Below are positions 26,469 through 32,595 of a stretch of DNA of 64,000 bases, one piece after another; position 1 is the first letter of the stretch, and each line of letters begins with the position of its first letter. The notes below the pieces were generated by a model. The model had not been told where the DNA came from. It did no database searches and worked only from the letters and a program-made list of their open reading frames with translations. This DNA is from the human T2T-CHM13v2.0 reference genome, Homo sapiens. The stretch is taken from the NCBI RefSeq assembly GCF_009914755.1, contig NC_060930.1. One strand, 5' to 3'. A program made the translations under genes and the position numbers.

Positions 26469-26785
26469 TCAATTATAATGGATTCATTTTGAACATGTTA
26501 AGATTGACTTATCTTTGAGAAGATAGGTAGAGAGGTCCTGTGGGCACCTAGAACTCACCTAGGGCTGAAGGCAGGTGTACATGGCTTTAATGTGTGTGCA
26601 GAAGCCATGAATGTGGATAAGATCTCCTTTGTGATGTACATAATGAAAGAAGAAAAAGGGCGAGAACTGAACCTGTGGAATATTCCCATTTATCAGCTGG
26701 CAGAAGACTAAGGCCTGTGACAAAGGATCAGTGGAAAAATAAAGAAGAAGGAGAGGATAAATGATGAATCAAAGGCACAAGGACA

Positions 26786-26898
26786 GGCTGGGCACAGTGG
26801 CTCATGCCTGTAATCTCAGCACTTTGGGAGCCCAAGGTGAGTGGATCACTTGAGCTCAGGAGTTCAAGACCAGCTTGGGCAAAATGGGAAGACCCCAT
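26786..26898 (+). mobile_element. Alu left monomer / FLAM
   Basis: Left arm only, followed by a TA-rich repeat. Confidence 0.85.
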
Positions 26899-26907
26899 GG
26901 TGGGAGG

Positions 26908-27029
26908 GATATATACATATATGTATATACATAAATAGTTGTGTGTATATATACACACACATATACAGTTGTATATACGTATATATATATATAGTTGTGT
27001 ATATATACACACACACACATATATATATA
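26908..27029. repeat. Compound (TA)/(CA)/(TG) microsatellite
   Basis: Directly visible; repeated ATAGTTGTGT units. Confidence 0.9.
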
Positions 27030-27189
27030 ACAAGTACATTGGAGAGGCTGTGTTCAGGAGCACAGATGAACAGGTTGGCCTTTGCCAAGGGAAGCACATA
27101 TTTTCCACCGAGAAAGAGAACGATGAGGGTGTGCGTGGAAGCAGGTTAAGTGTGTAGACTGTAGTTGGTAAAGCTGAAAGAGCTCTTAC

Positions 27190-27577
27190 TGAAAGATTCT
27201 CCCCGGGGCCTGAAAGTTTAAGGGAATGAATAACTCCGCCCTCCTCAGGCCCAGTCCCAAGGTGCAAGGCCACTTGTGCTAGCAGCATGCGTCAGCAAGA
27301 TAGCAGAAGCAGGAAGAGAGCTGGCCGGAAGATATGTACCCTGTGAAGACCGAGAGAGAGGCCGTCCAGGTACCACGTAGCAGTTACATCAGACTGAGAC
27401 ACTTCCTGTTTACAGGAGACTATAAAACCCCTGCCCCATCCTCATTTGGTGCTGATGCCATTTTCAGCCTCAGCACGCCTGCACCCAGGCGCTCATTAAA
27501 ACAGCATGTTGCTCCCCACTGCCTCGTGTTGTCTGTTGGCGCGCTGTCGGGGTTCGAACCGATACAAGAACCTTCCA
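27190..27577 (+). mobile_element. MER48 solo LTR (ERV1), EVADR promoter
   Basis: TG...CA termini, 388 bp, 5-bp TSD CTTAC/CCTAC; TATA at 27421; ATTAAA at 27495; resembles the recalled MER48 consensus. Confidence 0.85.
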
Positions 27578-30500
27578 CCTACCTGGTGCTTTGGCCTCAT
27601 CTATAAGGTAAAAGCAAAGCCATCTGTTGCTAAATATTGGAAACTCTGTGTAGCAGTGAAGATTAGAAGTAGTTAATGATTGGAGGATGACCCCTCTCAA
27701 AAAAAAAAAAAAGTTACATTGAGGGCCCCGCAGACATTGAATGAAAAATATGAACTCAAGTCAAAAAATTGTTTTCGCATTTTTTTCCAGCAGCTTTTCC
27801 ACTGTCCTGAAACAAGATAGAGAATCTGAGGTAAGATATGATCTGAAAAATGTTTGACATGGCTGCTTTTGCCATAAAAACAAAGTAGAAAATAATTAAA
27901 TGTAGTCCATTTCTAGAGTTACCTAAGTGTAGTGTTGGCTTATAAGACAGAATACCTGGACCCTGCCTCATGTGTGCCTATTGTTTGCTGAAAGGATTTT
28001 AATCCTATAATAAAATCTCTCACAACATGCCATGGAAAGTATTTCCTAGAATTCTTAAAAACTAATGAGAAGGAAGCTTGAATATGCTGATTAACATGGA
28101 AGCTTGTTACTGGAAAAGAAAAGCAAAACTGAAAGATATTGTTTTAATATCCTTTCAGCTACTCTAAAAGATTACATAACTGCACATAGAACAAGCTATA
28201 TAAAGTACAAGGCTTAGTCAAAGAAACATCAGGCTAATACCTGAGTTTTCATACTTAATACAAAAGTCTAAAATATTTCTTACCCCCGACCTGAATATGG
28301 CTTCAACTTCTCATACAATGTACTACTAGCCTAATAGATATTTTAGAATTAATTATTGCAAGTAGTTCATGTATATAAATGCATTTTTATTCAACTTTAA
28401 GTAGTTTGTTTCATTGTTTTGAGTATAAATAAGCAATCTCATCAATGATCACTTCAAAGATACAGTTTATTAAATATCTTAATCATTATTCACAAAGCAT
28501 TATAGGATTATTAGTAAAGCTCCCTAATAGATAGTATTATTATTTTCACTCTTTCCAAGGAGTCAGTTGTCAATATAAAAAAATACGTTTAGAGAATGGG
28601 TCAGTAAAGCAGCAATTTGAATAATGAAGGATATTTGAACGATTGAAGGATAATGAATCAAACTGAGGCAAACAAAGGAAGTGAGAATGAAGAATAAAGT
28701 GATGTAAAGAATTAATATAAGAATAGTAAGGAGCATTTTATAAATAAACCGTTAAAAGCAAGTTCTTCACAATAAACAAACTCTGAACAATGAGTCTATG
28801 AGGAGCTGCCACTGAACTTTAAGTTGCTCAAACACACTAACTGTGGAAGAGTAGTACAAATGACAAGTAGGCTTCCCACCAAGCAAAACTAGAAAATCAA
28901 AATTTGTTTCCAGCAGTAGCACATCTTCAAGTCCCTCCTCCTCACTTCCTCCTTTCTTTTTTCTTTGCCAAAACAAAACAGATCTACTTAAAAGGCCAAA
29001 GGCCACTGGAGAAAGAGTTTATGATCAGACAACCCAGGTGTCCTATGTCTAAAAGGGAAATACAGGTCTTGAAATGAGATAGACTGTGAAAATAATGAAT
29101 TAGTTAGAATTCATAGGGAAAGAACTTCATTCCTTAACACTTATCATCATGGTATTGTTTCTGCGGTGTGTTATTACTTCAGTAACTTCTTCCTGTAATG
29201 ATCTAGGTTACATGTAGGTATGTATTTATCACAATAATCTGATGGCTGTCTAATAACTAGTCACATACATGACATCTCTACTTCATAATAGTAGGAGCAA
29301 CTTACTCTAATCTGACTAAAGTAAAATATGATACATAAGCCTTTTTAATTCTGCAATAACCCATTCATCTTTATTATTAATAGATTTTTAAAATTACCAG
29401 TACGTATTTTTCTGAAATGTGTGCAATCAATCCTTTGTCAATTCTTTACTACTACGATCTGAAGAAAGTTGCAATCCAAAGAGAATAAGGGTTACAATTA
29501 TACTTGAAGATGAGAGTGCTAAAAATCTGTGATATGTTTGAAAACCTAGCAAATGGGTGACTCATACTTTCATTACCTTACTTGCTGCCTAGTAAACTAA
29601 ACTGGGTGCCTAAAATTCCCTTTGTTTATTTTCAACTTCAATTATATATGCACAGTATTTTAATTACTTAGCATCTATTGTTCCAGGTGCTTAGATTTTT
29701 CCACATCAAAATTCTCCAGTTTCCATTGTGTTATTTCCTGTTATAAGATTATTCAAAGTAGTTTTTTTCTTTATTGTTGTTTTTCAAAGGGAGGCAGACT
29801 GACCAGTCGTGTTTGGGGTTATTTCACAATGCTAGTTCCTTCCTGTATACAAATTCACACACGCACCCATATTCATACAAATGCTGGCCTTGGGTAAAAA
29901 AAATAAGGTTGCCAAACATTTGAAGTCTTCAGACCATTCTTTCTTTGTTCCTCCTTTGGGGAGCACCACCTCCCCTTCAATTATTCTGCATCCTGCATTT
30001 TCTCCTCTTCCTTACAAAGAGCCTGGTATCAGTCACAGCTCCTGGCACTCCTGAGTTACATGGCCTACTTCTGAGGCACGCAAAGATTTGGTAGCAAAGC
30101 AAAGGGAAGGGAAGTGGCAGACCTGTCTCTCAGCTGCCAGCTGCAATCTTTCTCGCACACCAGTGCCTCTCCTTCTTACAAGTTACGTCCTGTCGGTAGA
30201 CGGACTGGCCCAACAACAAGGTTATATCTATTGAGGTTAAACTTGCCCCAAACAGTGTTTGTTGGAGCAGAGAGGCAGAAAGCGTACAAAATAGGAAGGT
30301 GAGTTCTCGAAAGAGTTAAAATCCAGCCTTAAAAATTCCACATATGCTCAGTCAGGTAAATCATCATGAATTTTTTACTGATATTTTGTCCTAGAAGATA
30401 GTGATATTAACATATTCTAGAAAAGAAAAACCTTGATTCAGTAAAAACCTCCTTAAGTGAGAGATACATGATTAAATGTTGATGACAAAATATATTTTGA

Positions 30501-31980
30501 GGTTATCTCAAAGTTTAATGAAGTTCTAAATATATAGAATGATTGAATATACACTTTAAGAAAACATGCAATAGGTGACTGGATAGAGCTGAAAAAGAGG
30601 CATCCATATATTTTAGATTGTTCATTTCTTGTATATTTGATTTTATGTATGAGAGTGTTTGTTATCCTGATTTAGAATGAAATGACTTTGAGTGGTATTT
30701 GTGGATTCAATTTTTTTCTAGCCTGAGGAATAATCTATTGTAGAAAAGTTGAAAAGTTGCTCTAATTCGCTAATATTTCAAAGCATCATTTATTTTCTCA
30801 GGGAAAGGACCAGAAAACTCGGATCCAAACTTAAAATGTCAATACTCATAGTTTAGCATTTCAAAATGAATAACTACATGGAGTTACCAGTGATACTTTT
30901 AAAATTTATATTTTTGCTATGTGTACTGTTTCAACAAAGTCATGAGTATACCAAAGCGAGCTAACAGTCTTCATTCCAAAATGTTGCCCCAAAATAATTT
31001 CTGAACCACATGACAGATGTTTGATACAGATGACTAAATTTCCTGTCATGTTTGTTTATTGTTAATAGTAAAACCAACAGAGAGTGCTAGACTTTAGACA
31101 CTAATATCTTCAAAATATGGACTTACATGAAACTAGACAGCAATATCATCTTAAAGTACTTTTTTCTCTTAAACAAACAAATCGAAAAAAGCAAAGATCA
31201 GAGATGAAAGGAAGAAAAGTATATCGAGTGACACCATGTGTCAGCCAGACACTGGGATAGATGCTTCATATACCTTAGGTCATTTAACGTTATAGTTAAG
31301 TAGAAAATGTTTTAAAATTGTGGAGGTGTTTAACTAGTTTTTCATTTTCTAAGCCAGCACAGCTGTTGACTCACCTGTTCATAATGCAGAGATTATTTGT
31401 TCTGCCCTACGTTTCTGTTGCACAACATTTTCCCTCTCTTAAAAGTCATTTATTGAATCATCATCTGTCTCAGGCTTGATACGGTATAGCCTCTGAAAGA
31501 CTGGTTTAGTACTTAAACCCACCTTTCAAAATATTTCCAGTGCAGGCCATTCAGTGTTCCAGGTACCTAATGAGTCATTTTCTTCTTCCCAGTCTACCAA
31601 GCAGGATCTCAAAGCCTCCTTTATCTTTCTGGGTGTATACAGAGTCATTAAGCTCAAATATGTCCTTTGCCAATGGACTTGAGGGTTGGGTTTAGTTATT
31701 AACTTGGTGAGTCTCCACCCAGCTAACTATTCTAGGAAATCATTTGGTGAGTCAGGCATTCTTGTATTCACATTGCAGCGGCCAGTCATCTGCCCTAAGT
31801 GCTGCCGCCGAAGACTGAATGTCCTGGAAAGTTTGCTGTCACATCTCCATTATGACAAAAGCATTGTGCCGAACAGATGAAAAAATGCATTGTCAACGGA
31901 ATCTTTTATGTTTGTTTGTCTTCCTTTAAGCAACATTGCCTTACTTGTTATAAAAGATAAATAAATATTTGTTCATTTCA
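27450..31980 (+). ncRNA. EVADR: LTR-driven three-exon lncRNA EVADR (LINC01610): exons ~27450-27607, 27791-27830, 31779-~31980
   Basis: TATAAAA at 27421 in the MER48 LTR; donor AAG|GTAAAA (27607); acceptor TTTTTTCCAG| (27790); donor GAG|GTAAGA (27830); acceptor CATTGCAG| (31778); AATAAA at 31960-31965. Spliced length ~400 nt and position upstream of FAM135A match the recalled EVADR. Confidence 0.85.
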
Positions 31981-32595
31981 ATTCTGATGAGTCTGTGAGC
32001 TGTTACCATCAAGCACAGAGCAGCAACCTACTTTGGGATTGAGAAAGTGGGAAATCTGAAGTGAAAGTCTATGGTGATTAAACAAAACTGAAAACTAAGC
32101 CACTCCTCTTCCATCTGGTAGAGAAATTGTGACCATATGCCCTTCTCTCCACTAAGAGGAAAGACCAGACTCACTGGTTCACTGGTATGTTTTCCTTATA
32201 GTAGACTGTGGTATGACAATGCCAAGTGATAAAACTTCTATGACACCCCTCTCTCCAGTTGATCCAAAGAACTTGGAGGGGAGGAAGAGGGGAGAGATGT
32301 GAGGAGACACAGCAAGTTAGGCACCTCTGCTTTTTCGCAGGAGCAAAAATAATAGGTTCTTATCTACTTGGAAGGTGAGGATACTACTAATTCATAAAAC
32401 AACATGAACACAGTTAATTTTCTAAATGCCAAGACATAAAAAAAAAATAATCTTCTTTAGGAAAAAATTGTTTCTAAAATAAAATAATAAATTTGTATTG
32501 AATTCTTACTATGTAATAGGTGCTAAACCAAGCACCTTACATGCTTTTGCTCACAACAACTCCATAATGTTGCTGTTATTTCACCATTTTACTGA

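What the first reader, a model, noticed from the sequence alone, without database searches (positions are those of the whole stretch)
27506..31880. Hidden spliced micropeptide ORF(s) in the LTR-driven 'non-coding' EVADR transcript
Seen in sequence: ATG 27506 (AGCATGT, A at -3) lies in the MER48 R/U5 and stays open for 34 codons to the exon 1 donor (phase 0). With exon 2 it gives 43 aa, MLLPTASCCLLARCRGSNRYKNLPPTWCFGLIYKQLFHCPETR* (TAG 27818-27820). That stop is only 10 nt upstream of the last junction, so it should escape NMD under the 50-55 nt rule. The CAGCAG acceptor could drop one Gln. If exon 2 is skipped, exon 1 joins exon 3 in frame to give a 67-aa Cys/Arg-rich ORF (...IYK-RPVICPKCCRRRLNVLESLLSHLHYDKSIVPNR*, TGA ending 31880). 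Only a 14-codon cap-proximal ORF (ATG 27455) precedes it. Established: EVADR is adenocarcinoma-associated. Inference: a de novo LTR+L2+unique-sequence microprotein or a tumour-restricted HLA peptide source. I cannot confirm whether its translation has been reported.
Basis: partly seen in the sequence, partly recalled or inferred. Interest (0 to 1): 0.8.

Follow-up and report, generated by a model that had tools for sequence, protein, structure and literature searches.

The report
Chance short ORF in EVADR lncRNA
The short reading frames are really there in the retroviral-LTR-driven cancer RNA EVADR, but they are no longer than chance gives, match no known protein, and were already listed and checked without result by the RNA's discoverers, so this is an ordinary untested candidate.

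Summary
ATG 27506 opens 34 codons to the exon end at 27607. With the annotated 40-nt exon this gives 43 codons, with TAG 10 nt before the last junction. A hypothetical join of 27607 to 31779 gives 67 codons.

The ATG lies in a 388-bp solo MER48 LTR (27190-27577, TG...CA, 5-bp target duplication matching 4 of 5). MER48 belongs to HERVH48 in the HERV-H/F supergroup. Two-LTR copies elsewhere carry a tRNA-Phe primer site. The family is roughly 20-45 My old.

The 43-codon ORF is within chance: 2048 of 5000 shuffles have one as long. The start codon is a CpG-decay product, present in only 5 of 29 other copies. No domain, homologue or Atlas neighbour was found.

Gibb et al. 2015 already listed three EVADR ORFs, scored the RNA as non-coding, and found no peptides in K562 small-peptide proteomics. 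My library searches found no report of translation.

RefSeq has one transcript and no skipping isoform. In that RefSeq model, four upstream ATGs precede 27506. In the RACE-defined LTR transcript, 27506 is effectively the first AUG, so low-level translation or an HLA ligand is possible but unshown.

Verdict: known locus, ordinary ORF, low interest.

The parts
27185..27189 (.). Left copy of the 5-bp target-site duplication (CTTAC)
   Evidence: it matches the right flank at 4 of 5 bases. In 24 other full-ended copies the 5-bp flanks match 5/5 in 8 and 4/5 in 3. The offset control gave 0 of 24 at either level.
27190..27577 (+). Solo MER48 LTR (HERVH48, HERV-H/F supergroup, ERV1), 388 bp, TG...CA
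   Evidence: genomic copies are 84-89% identical, and nearly all end at these bounds; there is no second copy in the 64-kb window; no primer-binding site follows it (best 8/18). Named MER48 in print (PMC4375928). Listed as a 388-bp solo LTR in PMC11007075.
27578..27582 (.). Right copy of the target-site duplication (CCTAC)
27421..27427 (+). TATA box of the LTR (TATAAAA)
   Evidence: One search gives the position. The overlapping heptamer 27422-27428 is identical in 24 of 29 other copies. Gibb 2015 mapped three RACE 5' ends downstream of it.
27451..27457 (+). Zone of the main transcription start (inferred, not read from a figure)
   Evidence: My arithmetic. The paper gives a 394-nt main RNA (397 nt predicted) with 127 nt supplied by MER48. 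The window gives the LTR end at 27577 and exons of 40 and about 200 nt. The paper's figure with the exact base is not held.
27455..27499 (+). 14-codon upstream ORF whose ATG is 0-4 nt from, or cut by, the main 5' end
   Evidence: with the TSS arithmetic above.
27495..27500 (+). LTR's own poly(A) hexamer ATTAAA, marking the R region; it must be read through for EVADR to form
   Evidence: One search gives the position. It is identical in 24 of 29 copies. Read-through is an inference.
27506..27607 (+). First 34 codons of the candidate ORF. The first 24 are LTR-derived (to 27577) and the last 10 come from flanking DNA.
   Evidence: The ATG is present at the homologous place in 5 of 29 other copies. 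Columns 27505-27506 read CG in 13, CA in 7, TG in 5 and other in 4 of 29.
27249..27607 (+). Exon as annotated in RefSeq NR_125857.1. It starts in LTR U3, upstream of the RACE-defined start.
27334..27606 (+). 90-codon ORF, out of frame with and overlapping the 27506 frame. It is present only in RNAs that start upstream, as in the RefSeq model.
   Evidence: It is reached in 371 of 5000 shuffles of the 673-nt model.
27788..27793 (+). CAGCAG tandem (NAGNAG) acceptor
   Evidence: Use of the second AG was not tested.
27791..27830 (+). 40-nt middle exon. It holds the last 9 codons and the TAG (27818-27820) of the 43-codon ORF.
31779..31981 (+). Last exon. 31779-31880 would extend the ORF to 67 codons only if the 40-nt exon were skipped.
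   Evidence: AATAAA is at 31960.
26766..26836 (+). RefSeq first exon, inside a masked repeat (26779-26887) that I read by eye as Alu-like

Best explanation
EVADR is what its discoverers said: a short, spliced, polyadenylated RNA started by the TATA promoter of a solo MER48 (HERVH48) LTR that entered the catarrhine lineage some tens of millions of years ago.

The 43-codon frame from ATG 27506 is a by-product rather than a selected gene. A CpG in the LTR's R/U5 region decayed to CpA and made an ATG. The frame then stays open, by chance, through the LTR end, 10 codons of flank and 9 codons of the 40-nt exon.

In the main transcript this is effectively the first AUG, about 50 nt from the cap, with a purine at -3. 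Its stop should not trigger NMD. Scanning ribosomes may therefore initiate there at some level. If so, the product would be a basic, Cys-rich, domain-less peptide with no evidence of function.

Shown here: the anatomy, the family, the age bracket, the chance statistics, the origin of the start codon, and the absence of relatives.
Inferred: the exact TSS, any translation, and the lack of function.
For: ORF geometry.

Chance:
- 2048 of 5000 shuffles have an ORF of 43 codons or more.
- 723 of 5000 have one from the first ATG.

Start codon is derived:
- ATG is at the homologous place in 5 of 29 other copies.
- The first column is G in 19, A in 7, C in 2 and T in 1.
- The dinucleotide is CG 13, CA 7, TG 5, other 4. 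This is the CpG-decay pattern.

No relatives:
- Pfam gave 0 families for the 34-aa piece. For the 33-aa piece it gave two hits far below cut-off (12.8 bits against 33.2, and 7.5 against 24).
- The word search with the contiguous 56-aa genomic ORF found no candidate.
- The Atlas gave no usable hit.
- There is no hydrophobic segment of transmembrane strength (maximum 19-residue Kyte-Doolittle 0.36).

Print (Gibb 2015, section 23): CPC score -1.29, three putative ORFs listed, and no evidence of translation in K562 small-peptide proteomic sets, although K562 expresses EVADR at 122 FPKM (section 27).

RNA-level function is reported instead:
- A conserved secondary structure with compensatory changes (section 32).
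- My fold of the spliced RNA is modestly more stable than shuffles (z -2.08; 6 of 300 shuffles as low).
- Reviews relate a YBX1-scaffold role (PMC9735521 passages) and miRNA sponging (PMC11890851 passages).

Library searches for EVADR with peptide (38 papers), ribosome (9), antigen (49, of which 25 listed), ENSG00000237643 (2) and LINC01610 (2) turned up no report of an EVADR peptide. I saw listings for these, and read passages of eleven papers other than Gibb 2015.
Against: - In the RACE-defined transcript, 27506 is effectively the first AUG. It has an adequate context (A at -3), a leader of about 50 nt and an NMD-safe stop. These features favour some initiation.
- EVADR is said to bring YBX1 and its mRNAs to polyribosomes (as retold by PMC9735521; the primary paper is not held). 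That places the RNA in the cytoplasm near ribosomes.
[quoted passage not shown] Coding constraint could also produce this. I could not examine codon-level patterns because there are no primate sequences here and the alignments are in closed supplements.
- Shotgun proteomics of the period was insensitive to short, Cys-rich, basic peptides, so the K562 negative is weak.
- Ribo-seq ORF catalogues keep their lists in supplements, which were closed. A listing there would not have been seen.
Confidence: 0.7

Rival explanations
1. The 43-codon frame is translated at an appreciable level in EVADR-high adenocarcinomas. The peptide has no selected function, but it is degraded and feeds tumour-restricted HLA class I ligands, partly encoded by LTR sequence.
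For: - First usable AUG of the main transcript, from TSS arithmetic.
- A at -3.
- Stop 10 nt before the last junction, so no NMD under the 50-55-nt rule (with established knowledge).
- High, tumour-restricted expression: 25-53% of five adenocarcinoma types, with almost none in normal tissue (Gibb 2015 abstract and section 27).
- Polyribosome association is retold by PMC9735521.
Against: - No peptide evidence in K562 sets.
- No report was found in any library search.
- The AUG is paired in the predicted minimum-energy fold, which is weak evidence.
- In RNAs that start upstream, as in the RefSeq model, four upstream ATGs, including a 90-codon overlapping ORF, would intercept ribosomes.
Confidence: 0.2
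2. The ORF encodes a functional, selected de novo microprotein of catarrhine primates, and the reported exon conservation reflects coding constraint.
For: Exons are reported as unusually conserved in apes and Old World monkeys, with both splice junctions kept (Gibb 2015 section 32 and discussion passages).
Against: - The ORF length is at chance level.
- The start codon comes from CpG decay.
- No domain, homologue, signal-like or membrane segment was found.
- The authors explain the conservation by RNA structure, with 19 of 39 stem substitutions compensatory.
- CPC score is -1.29.
Confidence: 0.05
3. An isoform that skips the 40-nt exon exists and is translated into the 67-aa form.
For: - The join is in frame.
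- A 40-nt exon is small.
[quoted passage not shown] The primary paper, Yari 2023, is not held, so the variant's structure is unknown to me.
- Gibb's RT-PCR and RACE reverse primer spans the 27830|31779 junction, so those assays could not have seen skipping.
Against: - RefSeq has one transcript and no such junction.
- Gibb 2015 describes a single isoform from RNA-seq (section 27).
- The 40-nt exon has a T-rich tract before its acceptor and a GAG|GTAAGA donor, both close to consensus by eye.
- The 67-codon length is reached in 501 of 5000 shuffles.
Confidence: 0.05

Closest known systems
EVADR / LINC01610 as described by Gibb et al. 2015 (PMC4375928)
   Same: Same locus, same MER48 LTR promoter and same three exons. 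Its ORFs were already listed there and checked against K562 small-peptide proteomics.
   Different: Added here:
- The exact LTR bounds and target-site duplication.
- The CpG-decay origin of the ATG.
- The chance statistics.
- The point that their junction-spanning primer could not see exon skipping.
Which three ORFs they listed is in a closed supplement (their Figure S2).
lncRNA-encoded peptides of colorectal cancer, such as the HOXB-AS3 peptide (named in PMC11890851)
   Same: A short AUG-initiated frame in an RNA annotated as non-coding and expressed in colorectal tumours.
   Different: That peptide has experimental support, as cited there. I did not read the primary paper. The EVADR frame has none, and its length is at chance level.
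Suppressyn, the HERVH48-derived host protein (PMC12228294 passages)
   Same: It comes from the same retroviral family as the MER48 LTR.
   Different: Suppressyn descends from a viral gene. The EVADR frame lies in non-coding LTR R/U5 plus host flank and has no viral protein ancestry.
Tumour antigens from LTR-initiated transcripts (a class recalled from my own knowledge; no paper read here)
   Same: A tumour-restricted transcript started by a de-repressed LTR could supply non-self-like peptides.
   Different: Membership needs an HLA-bound peptide observed by mass spectrometry or a T-cell response. None is known for EVADR from my searches.

Membership tests
MER48 LTR of HERVH48 (HERV-H/F supergroup, ERV1) | Sequence similarity over the full length to other genomic copies, with shared ends | tested here: met
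   40 further matches at 84-89% identity (177 candidates, 40 scored). 39 of them span most of the element, nearly all over query 41-428; the 41st row is a partial match; 29 copies are 85.3-89.1% identical.
MER48 LTR of HERVH48 (HERV-H/F supergroup, ERV1) | LTR hallmarks: TG...CA ends, TATA box, poly(A) hexamer, target-site duplication | tested here: met
   TG/CA ends, TATAAAA at 27421, ATTAAA at 27495, and 5-bp flanks matching 4 of 5. The family norm is 5 bp, matching 5/5 in 8 of 24 copies, with control 0 of 24.
MER48 LTR of HERVH48 (HERV-H/F supergroup, ERV1) | The name MER48 assigned to this copy by a repeat library | not testable with these tools
   No Dfam or RepeatMasker library was available. 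The name is taken from print: PMC4375928 and the PMC11007075 table (388-bp solo MER48). The link of MER48 to HERVH48I comes from tables in PMC4724089 and PMC5753468.
MER48 LTR of HERVH48 (HERV-H/F supergroup, ERV1) | Primer-binding site type in two-LTR copies | tested here: met
   the 18-mer lying 2 nt after the 5' LTR matches the tRNA-Phe(GAA) 3' end at 17/18 (L003) and 15/18 (L005), out of 49 human tRNA genes tried. Both pairs have a 5/5 outer target duplication. This fits the 'F' of the H/F supergroup.
MER48 LTR of HERVH48 (HERV-H/F supergroup, ERV1) | Core-gene (pol) relationship | not tested
   Left out. It would have needed proviral interiors, which may hold envelope remnants.
Translated small ORF / microprotein gene | AUG-initiated frame in a capped, spliced, polyadenylated RNA, reachable by scanning | tested here: met
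   with the TSS arithmetic. Met for the LTR-initiated RNA only, not for the RefSeq model, which has four upstream ATGs.
Translated small ORF / microprotein gene | ORF longer than chance | tested here: not met
   2048 of 5000 shuffles for 43 codons, and 501 of 5000 for the hypothetical 67 codons.
Translated small ORF / microprotein gene | Homologues, domains or a recognisable sequence class | tested here: not met
   Caveat: only the pieces and the contiguous genomic ORF could be searched, not the spliced peptides.
Translated small ORF / microprotein gene | Ribosome footprints with periodicity, or detected peptide | not testable with these tools
   No reads or spectra were available. The published K562 check was negative.
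Translated small ORF / microprotein gene | Frame and start kept in orthologues, with coding-type substitution pattern | not testable with these tools
   No primate genomes were available. The alignments in Gibb's Additional file 3 are closed.
NAGNAG tandem acceptor | Two AG acceptors 3 nt apart, both used | tested here: inconclusive
   The CAGCAG motif is present at 27788-27793. Use of the second AG was not testable.

The most novel reading that the evidence does not exclude
A start codon born by CpG decay in the R/U5 of a roughly 30-My-old solo LTR made the first AUG of a tumour-restricted RNA. In EVADR-high adenocarcinomas this 43-codon frame, of which 24 codons are LTR-derived, is translated and supplies shared, tumour-restricted HLA ligands.
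Probability: 0.15. Interest if true: 0.55.

Novelty: already known. Interest (0 to 1): 0.2.

Why it matters
If the frame were translated, EVADR's wide and tumour-restricted expression would make it a shared non-mutational antigen source. That would be of practical interest. As it stands, the locus, its LTR promoter and the existence of short ORFs are all published, and the ORF has no feature beyond chance.

What this check adds is:
- A clean anatomy: solo LTR bounds, target duplication, and family typing by a tRNA-Phe primer site.
- The origin of the ATG.
- A caution that the RefSeq transcript model and the RACE-defined transcript give opposite answers on whether 27506 can be reached by scanning ribosomes.

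Tried and rejected
I then used the contiguous 56-aa genomic ORF and found no candidates.
2. Pfam on the two pieces gave only sub-threshold noise.
3. The Atlas search gave no usable hit.
4. Rfam on the whole window at gathering thresholds gave 0 matches.
5. I tested the L2 origin of the 40-nt exon, and repeat content of the last exon, by genome self-search. Only self matches came back, which cannot detect an old, diverged repeat.
6. Structure prediction and searches with the spliced 43-aa and 67-aa peptides were not done. A joined sequence may not be typed into a call, and no reference form exists for it.
7. Paper search was badly designed. It did not force the term EVADR, and none of its 25 listed papers holds it. 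It says nothing.
8. The primary papers of Lu 2022 and Yari 2023 are not held. Their content is known to me only as retold in reviews.
9. The pair L017/L024 was dropped from dating. Its outer flanks match 0 of 5 and no primer site follows it.
10. I considered a retained internal fragment after the LTR, because TGGTGC follows shortly after it. I rejected this: the best primer-site match is 8/18, and a 4/5 target duplication closes the element.

Supplements of Gibb 2015 (Figure S2 with the ORFs, Additional file 3 with the primate alignments) and the lists of Ribo-seq ORF catalogues were closed. They may bear directly on the claims.


Full report
OBSERVATION

- ATG 27506-27508 has A at -3 and T at +4.
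- The frame runs 34 codons to the exon end at 27607, and a GT follows.
- With annotated exon 27791-27830 the frame closes at TAG 27818-27820. That gives 43 codons, with the stop 10 nt before the last junction.
- The acceptor is a CAGCAG tandem at 27788-27793.
- Joining 27607 directly to the last exon at 31779 keeps the frame and gives 67 codons ending at 31880.
- ATG 27455 opens 14 codons.
- Unspliced, the same ATG gives a 56-codon genomic ORF ending at 27676.

ANNOTATION AND THE 5' END

RefSeq has one transcript, NR_125857.1. Its exons are 26766-26836, 27249-27607, 27791-27830 and 31779-31981. No isoform lacks the 40-nt exon. In that model the RNA starts in an upstream repeat-derived exon. 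Four ATGs precede 27506, at 26804, 27287, 27334 and 27455. The one at 27334 opens 90 codons that run to 27606 and overlap the candidate frame.

Gibb et al. 2015 (PMC4375928) report different starts. I read the abstract, sections 23, 27 and 32, and passages. By RLM-RACE in K562 they mapped three 5' ends, all downstream of the LTR's TATA box. [quoted passage not shown] The LTR ends at 27577 (see below) and the downstream exons are 40 and about 200 nt. My arithmetic therefore puts the main start between 27451 and 27457. The figure that shows the base is not held.

On any of these solutions the ATG at 27455 is cut, or lies within 4 nt of the cap. By established knowledge of scanning, recognition there is poor. 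So 27506 is effectively the first AUG of the main RNA, about 50 nt from the cap.

THE VIRUS REMNANT: REAL, SOLO, FAMILY AND AGE

A genome self-search with 27150-27650 returned 41 rows (177 candidates, 40 scored), one of them the window copy itself. The other copies are 84-89% identical, and almost all end at query 41-428, which is window 27190-27577.

Evidence that the element is a solo LTR:
- It is 388 bp, begins with TG and ends with CA.
- No second copy lies in the 64-kb window.
- Its 5-bp flanks, CTTAC and CCTAC, match at 4 of 5.
- Among 24 other copies aligned to both ends, the 5-bp flanks match 5/5 in 8 and 4/5 in 3. An offset control gave 0 of 24 at either level.
- PMC11007075 (passages) lists the EVADR element as a 388-bp solitary MER48.

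The name comes from print.
- Gibb 2015 calls it MER48 of the ERV1 class.
- Tables in PMC4724089 and PMC5753468 pair MER48 with the internal sequence HERVH48I, in the HERVHF supergroup (passages).
- A table in PMC12228294 labels HERVH48I (MER48) as HERV-Fb. Vargiu et al. use that label for another group.

As a test of my own, I compared the 18 bases after each LTR with the 3' ends of 49 human tRNA genes, one per anticodon.
- Two copies matched tRNA-Phe(GAA) at 17/18 and 15/18, with a 2-nt spacer.
- One more copy matched at 12/18. No other copy reached 14/18.
- The window copy scored 8/18.
- The two matching copies are the 5' LTRs of two same-strand pairs whose outer flanks match 5 of 5. They are therefore true two-LTR proviruses primed by tRNA-Phe, which fits the H/F supergroup.
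- I did not fetch proviral interiors and did not type a core gene.

Age estimates:
- The window copy differs from 29 other copies by a median Kimura distance of 0.138, or 0.103 without CpG sites. These 29 are the best-scoring copies, so the sample leans towards similar ones.
- All 435 pairs among the 30 copies have a median distance of 0.152, range 0.079-0.222.
- Halving these distances and using a recalled neutral rate of about 2.2e-9 per site per year gives roughly 31-35 My. Slower primate rates would give more.
- The two confirmed LTR pairs differ by 0.079 and 0.130. At the same rate this is about 18 and 30 My.
- Gibb 2015 found this insertion in apes and Old World monkeys but not in New World monkeys or prosimians (abstract and section 32). 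That brackets it between those two splits.

These estimates agree on some tens of millions of years.

WHERE THE START CODON CAME FROM

- ATG stands at the homologous place in only 5 of 29 other copies.
- The first column is G in 19, A in 7, C in 2 and T in 1. The next two columns are T in 27 and G in 26.
- The dinucleotide at 27505-27506 is CG in 13, CA in 7, TG in 5 and other in 4. This is the signature of CpG decay.

The ATG is thus a derived CpG-to-CpA change and not a feature of the family. It lies 6 nt after the LTR's own ATTAAA hexamer at 27495, which is identical in 24 of 29 copies. Of the 34 exon-1 codons, 24 are LTR-derived and 10 come from flanking DNA.

IS THE ORF MORE THAN CHANCE?

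No. In 5000 dinucleotide-preserving shuffles:
- For the 394-nt RNA, the longest ATG ORF reaches 43 codons in 2048 shuffles. The first-ATG ORF does so in 723.
- For the hypothetical 354-nt skipped RNA, the figures for 67 codons are 501 and 227.
- The 90-codon ORF of the RefSeq model is reached in 371 of 5000.

THE PUTATIVE PEPTIDES

Properties were computed in a script on the joined annotated exons, and the letters were not printed.
- The 43-aa form has pI 9.3 and 5 Cys, with a maximum 19-residue hydropathy of 0.36.
- The 67-aa form has pI 9.8, 7 Cys and 12 Arg+Lys, with a maximum of 0.49.
- Neither has a membrane-type segment.

Searches:
- Pfam finds nothing for the 34-aa piece. For the 33-aa piece it gives only two far sub-threshold hits.
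With the contiguous 56-aa genomic ORF, whose first 34 residues are shared with both spliced forms and whose length range of 31-98 aa covers both, it found no candidate in the named public sources.
- The Atlas gave no usable hit.
- The spliced peptides themselves could not be submitted to the search or structure tools.

WHAT IS IN PRINT ON CODING

Section 23 of Gibb 2015 reports the following:
- CPC score -1.29.
- Three putative ORFs from ORF Finder, one with a non-AUG start.
- No evidence of translation in several K562 proteomic sets aimed at small peptides.

The ORFs were therefore not hidden.

In the held library:
- 76 papers hold 'EVADR'.
- 38 also hold 'peptide', 9 'ribosome', and 49 'antigen', of which 25 were listed.
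- 2 hold ENSG00000237643 and 2 hold LINC01610.

From the listings, and from passages of eleven papers besides Gibb 2015, none reports an EVADR-encoded peptide. This says nothing about lists in supplementary tables, or about papers that are not held.

WHAT IS IN PRINT ON FUNCTION AND ISOFORMS

- Gibb 2015 argue for a conserved RNA structure. 19 of 39 stem substitutions are compensatory (section 32).
- My own fold of the spliced RNA is modestly more stable than shuffles, with z -2.08 and 6 of 300 shuffles as low.
- Reviews retell that EVADR scaffolds YBX1 and brings EMT-factor mRNAs to polyribosomes (PMC9735521).
- Reviews also retell that EVADR variants sponge miR-7 and miR-29b (PMC11890851).
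[quoted passage not shown] No other held paper names it, and the primary paper is not held. I cannot say whether it is the exon-skipped form.
- Gibb's RT-PCR and RACE reverse primer covers the last 15 nt of the 40-nt exon and the first 6 nt of the last exon. Those assays could not have detected skipping. Their single-isoform statement rests on RNA-seq.

MECHANISM AND VERDICT

The most likely reading is as follows.
1. A de-repressed solo LTR fires from its TATA box.
2. The RNA reads through the LTR's own poly(A) hexamer (inference).
3. It is spliced twice and acts, if at all, as an RNA.
4. The 43-codon frame is a chance frame whose ATG arose by CpG decay.

Because it is the first AUG of the main RNA and its stop is NMD-safe, some translation is plausible. 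A tumour-restricted HLA ligand also cannot be excluded. Neither is shown, and the one published check was negative. The 67-aa form needs a junction for which I found no evidence.

The locus and its ORFs are already known, and the interest is low.

Noticed in passing
window 26766-26836 and 27249-27607: RefSeq NR_125857.1 starts in an upstream repeat-derived exon and enters the LTR at 27249, in U3. The published RACE ends lie about 200 nt further downstream. The two models disagree on which ATG comes first. The longest ORF of the RefSeq model is a different, 90-codon frame (27334-27606).
   Followed up: partly
window 27583-27806 (-) and 31523-31772 (-): The predicted antisense lncRNA LOC105377847 has an exon that begins 6 nt after the LTR end and covers EVADR intron 1 and part of the 40-nt exon. 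Its first exon ends 7 nt before EVADR's last exon. Gibb 2015 found the LTR bidirectional in reporters but saw no antisense transcription in vivo.
   Followed up: no
window 27490-27509: The 3' primer of Gibb's promoter-reporter fragments ends at 27509. All their constructs therefore carry ATG 27506 just upstream of the luciferase ORF. Whether that affected the readings cannot be told without the vector junction.
   Followed up: no
window 27506-27676: If intron 1 is retained, the same ATG gives a 56-codon ORF with a different C-terminus.
   Followed up: partly
window 26904-27036 and 26728-27288 (-): A TA/CA-rich microsatellite lies about 150 bp upstream of the LTR. A 186-aa ORF on the minus strand runs through it and the neighbouring repeat. 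This is probably a low-complexity artefact.
   Followed up: no
L003/L007 (C23, about 68.13 Mb) and L005/L011 (C8, about 63.57 Mb): These are two MER48-flanked proviruses, about 6.8 and 3.4 kb long. Each has a perfect 5-bp outer target duplication and a tRNA-Phe primer site. Their LTR divergences are 0.079 and 0.130. The interiors were not fetched.
   Followed up: partly
L017/L024 and C8:85712198-85712497: A third same-strand LTR pair on C8 has no matching outer flanks and no primer site. An inverted partial copy abuts it. It looks like a rearranged cluster rather than a simple provirus.
   Followed up: no
whole window: No Rfam family reaches its gathering score anywhere in the 64 kb.
   Followed up: yes
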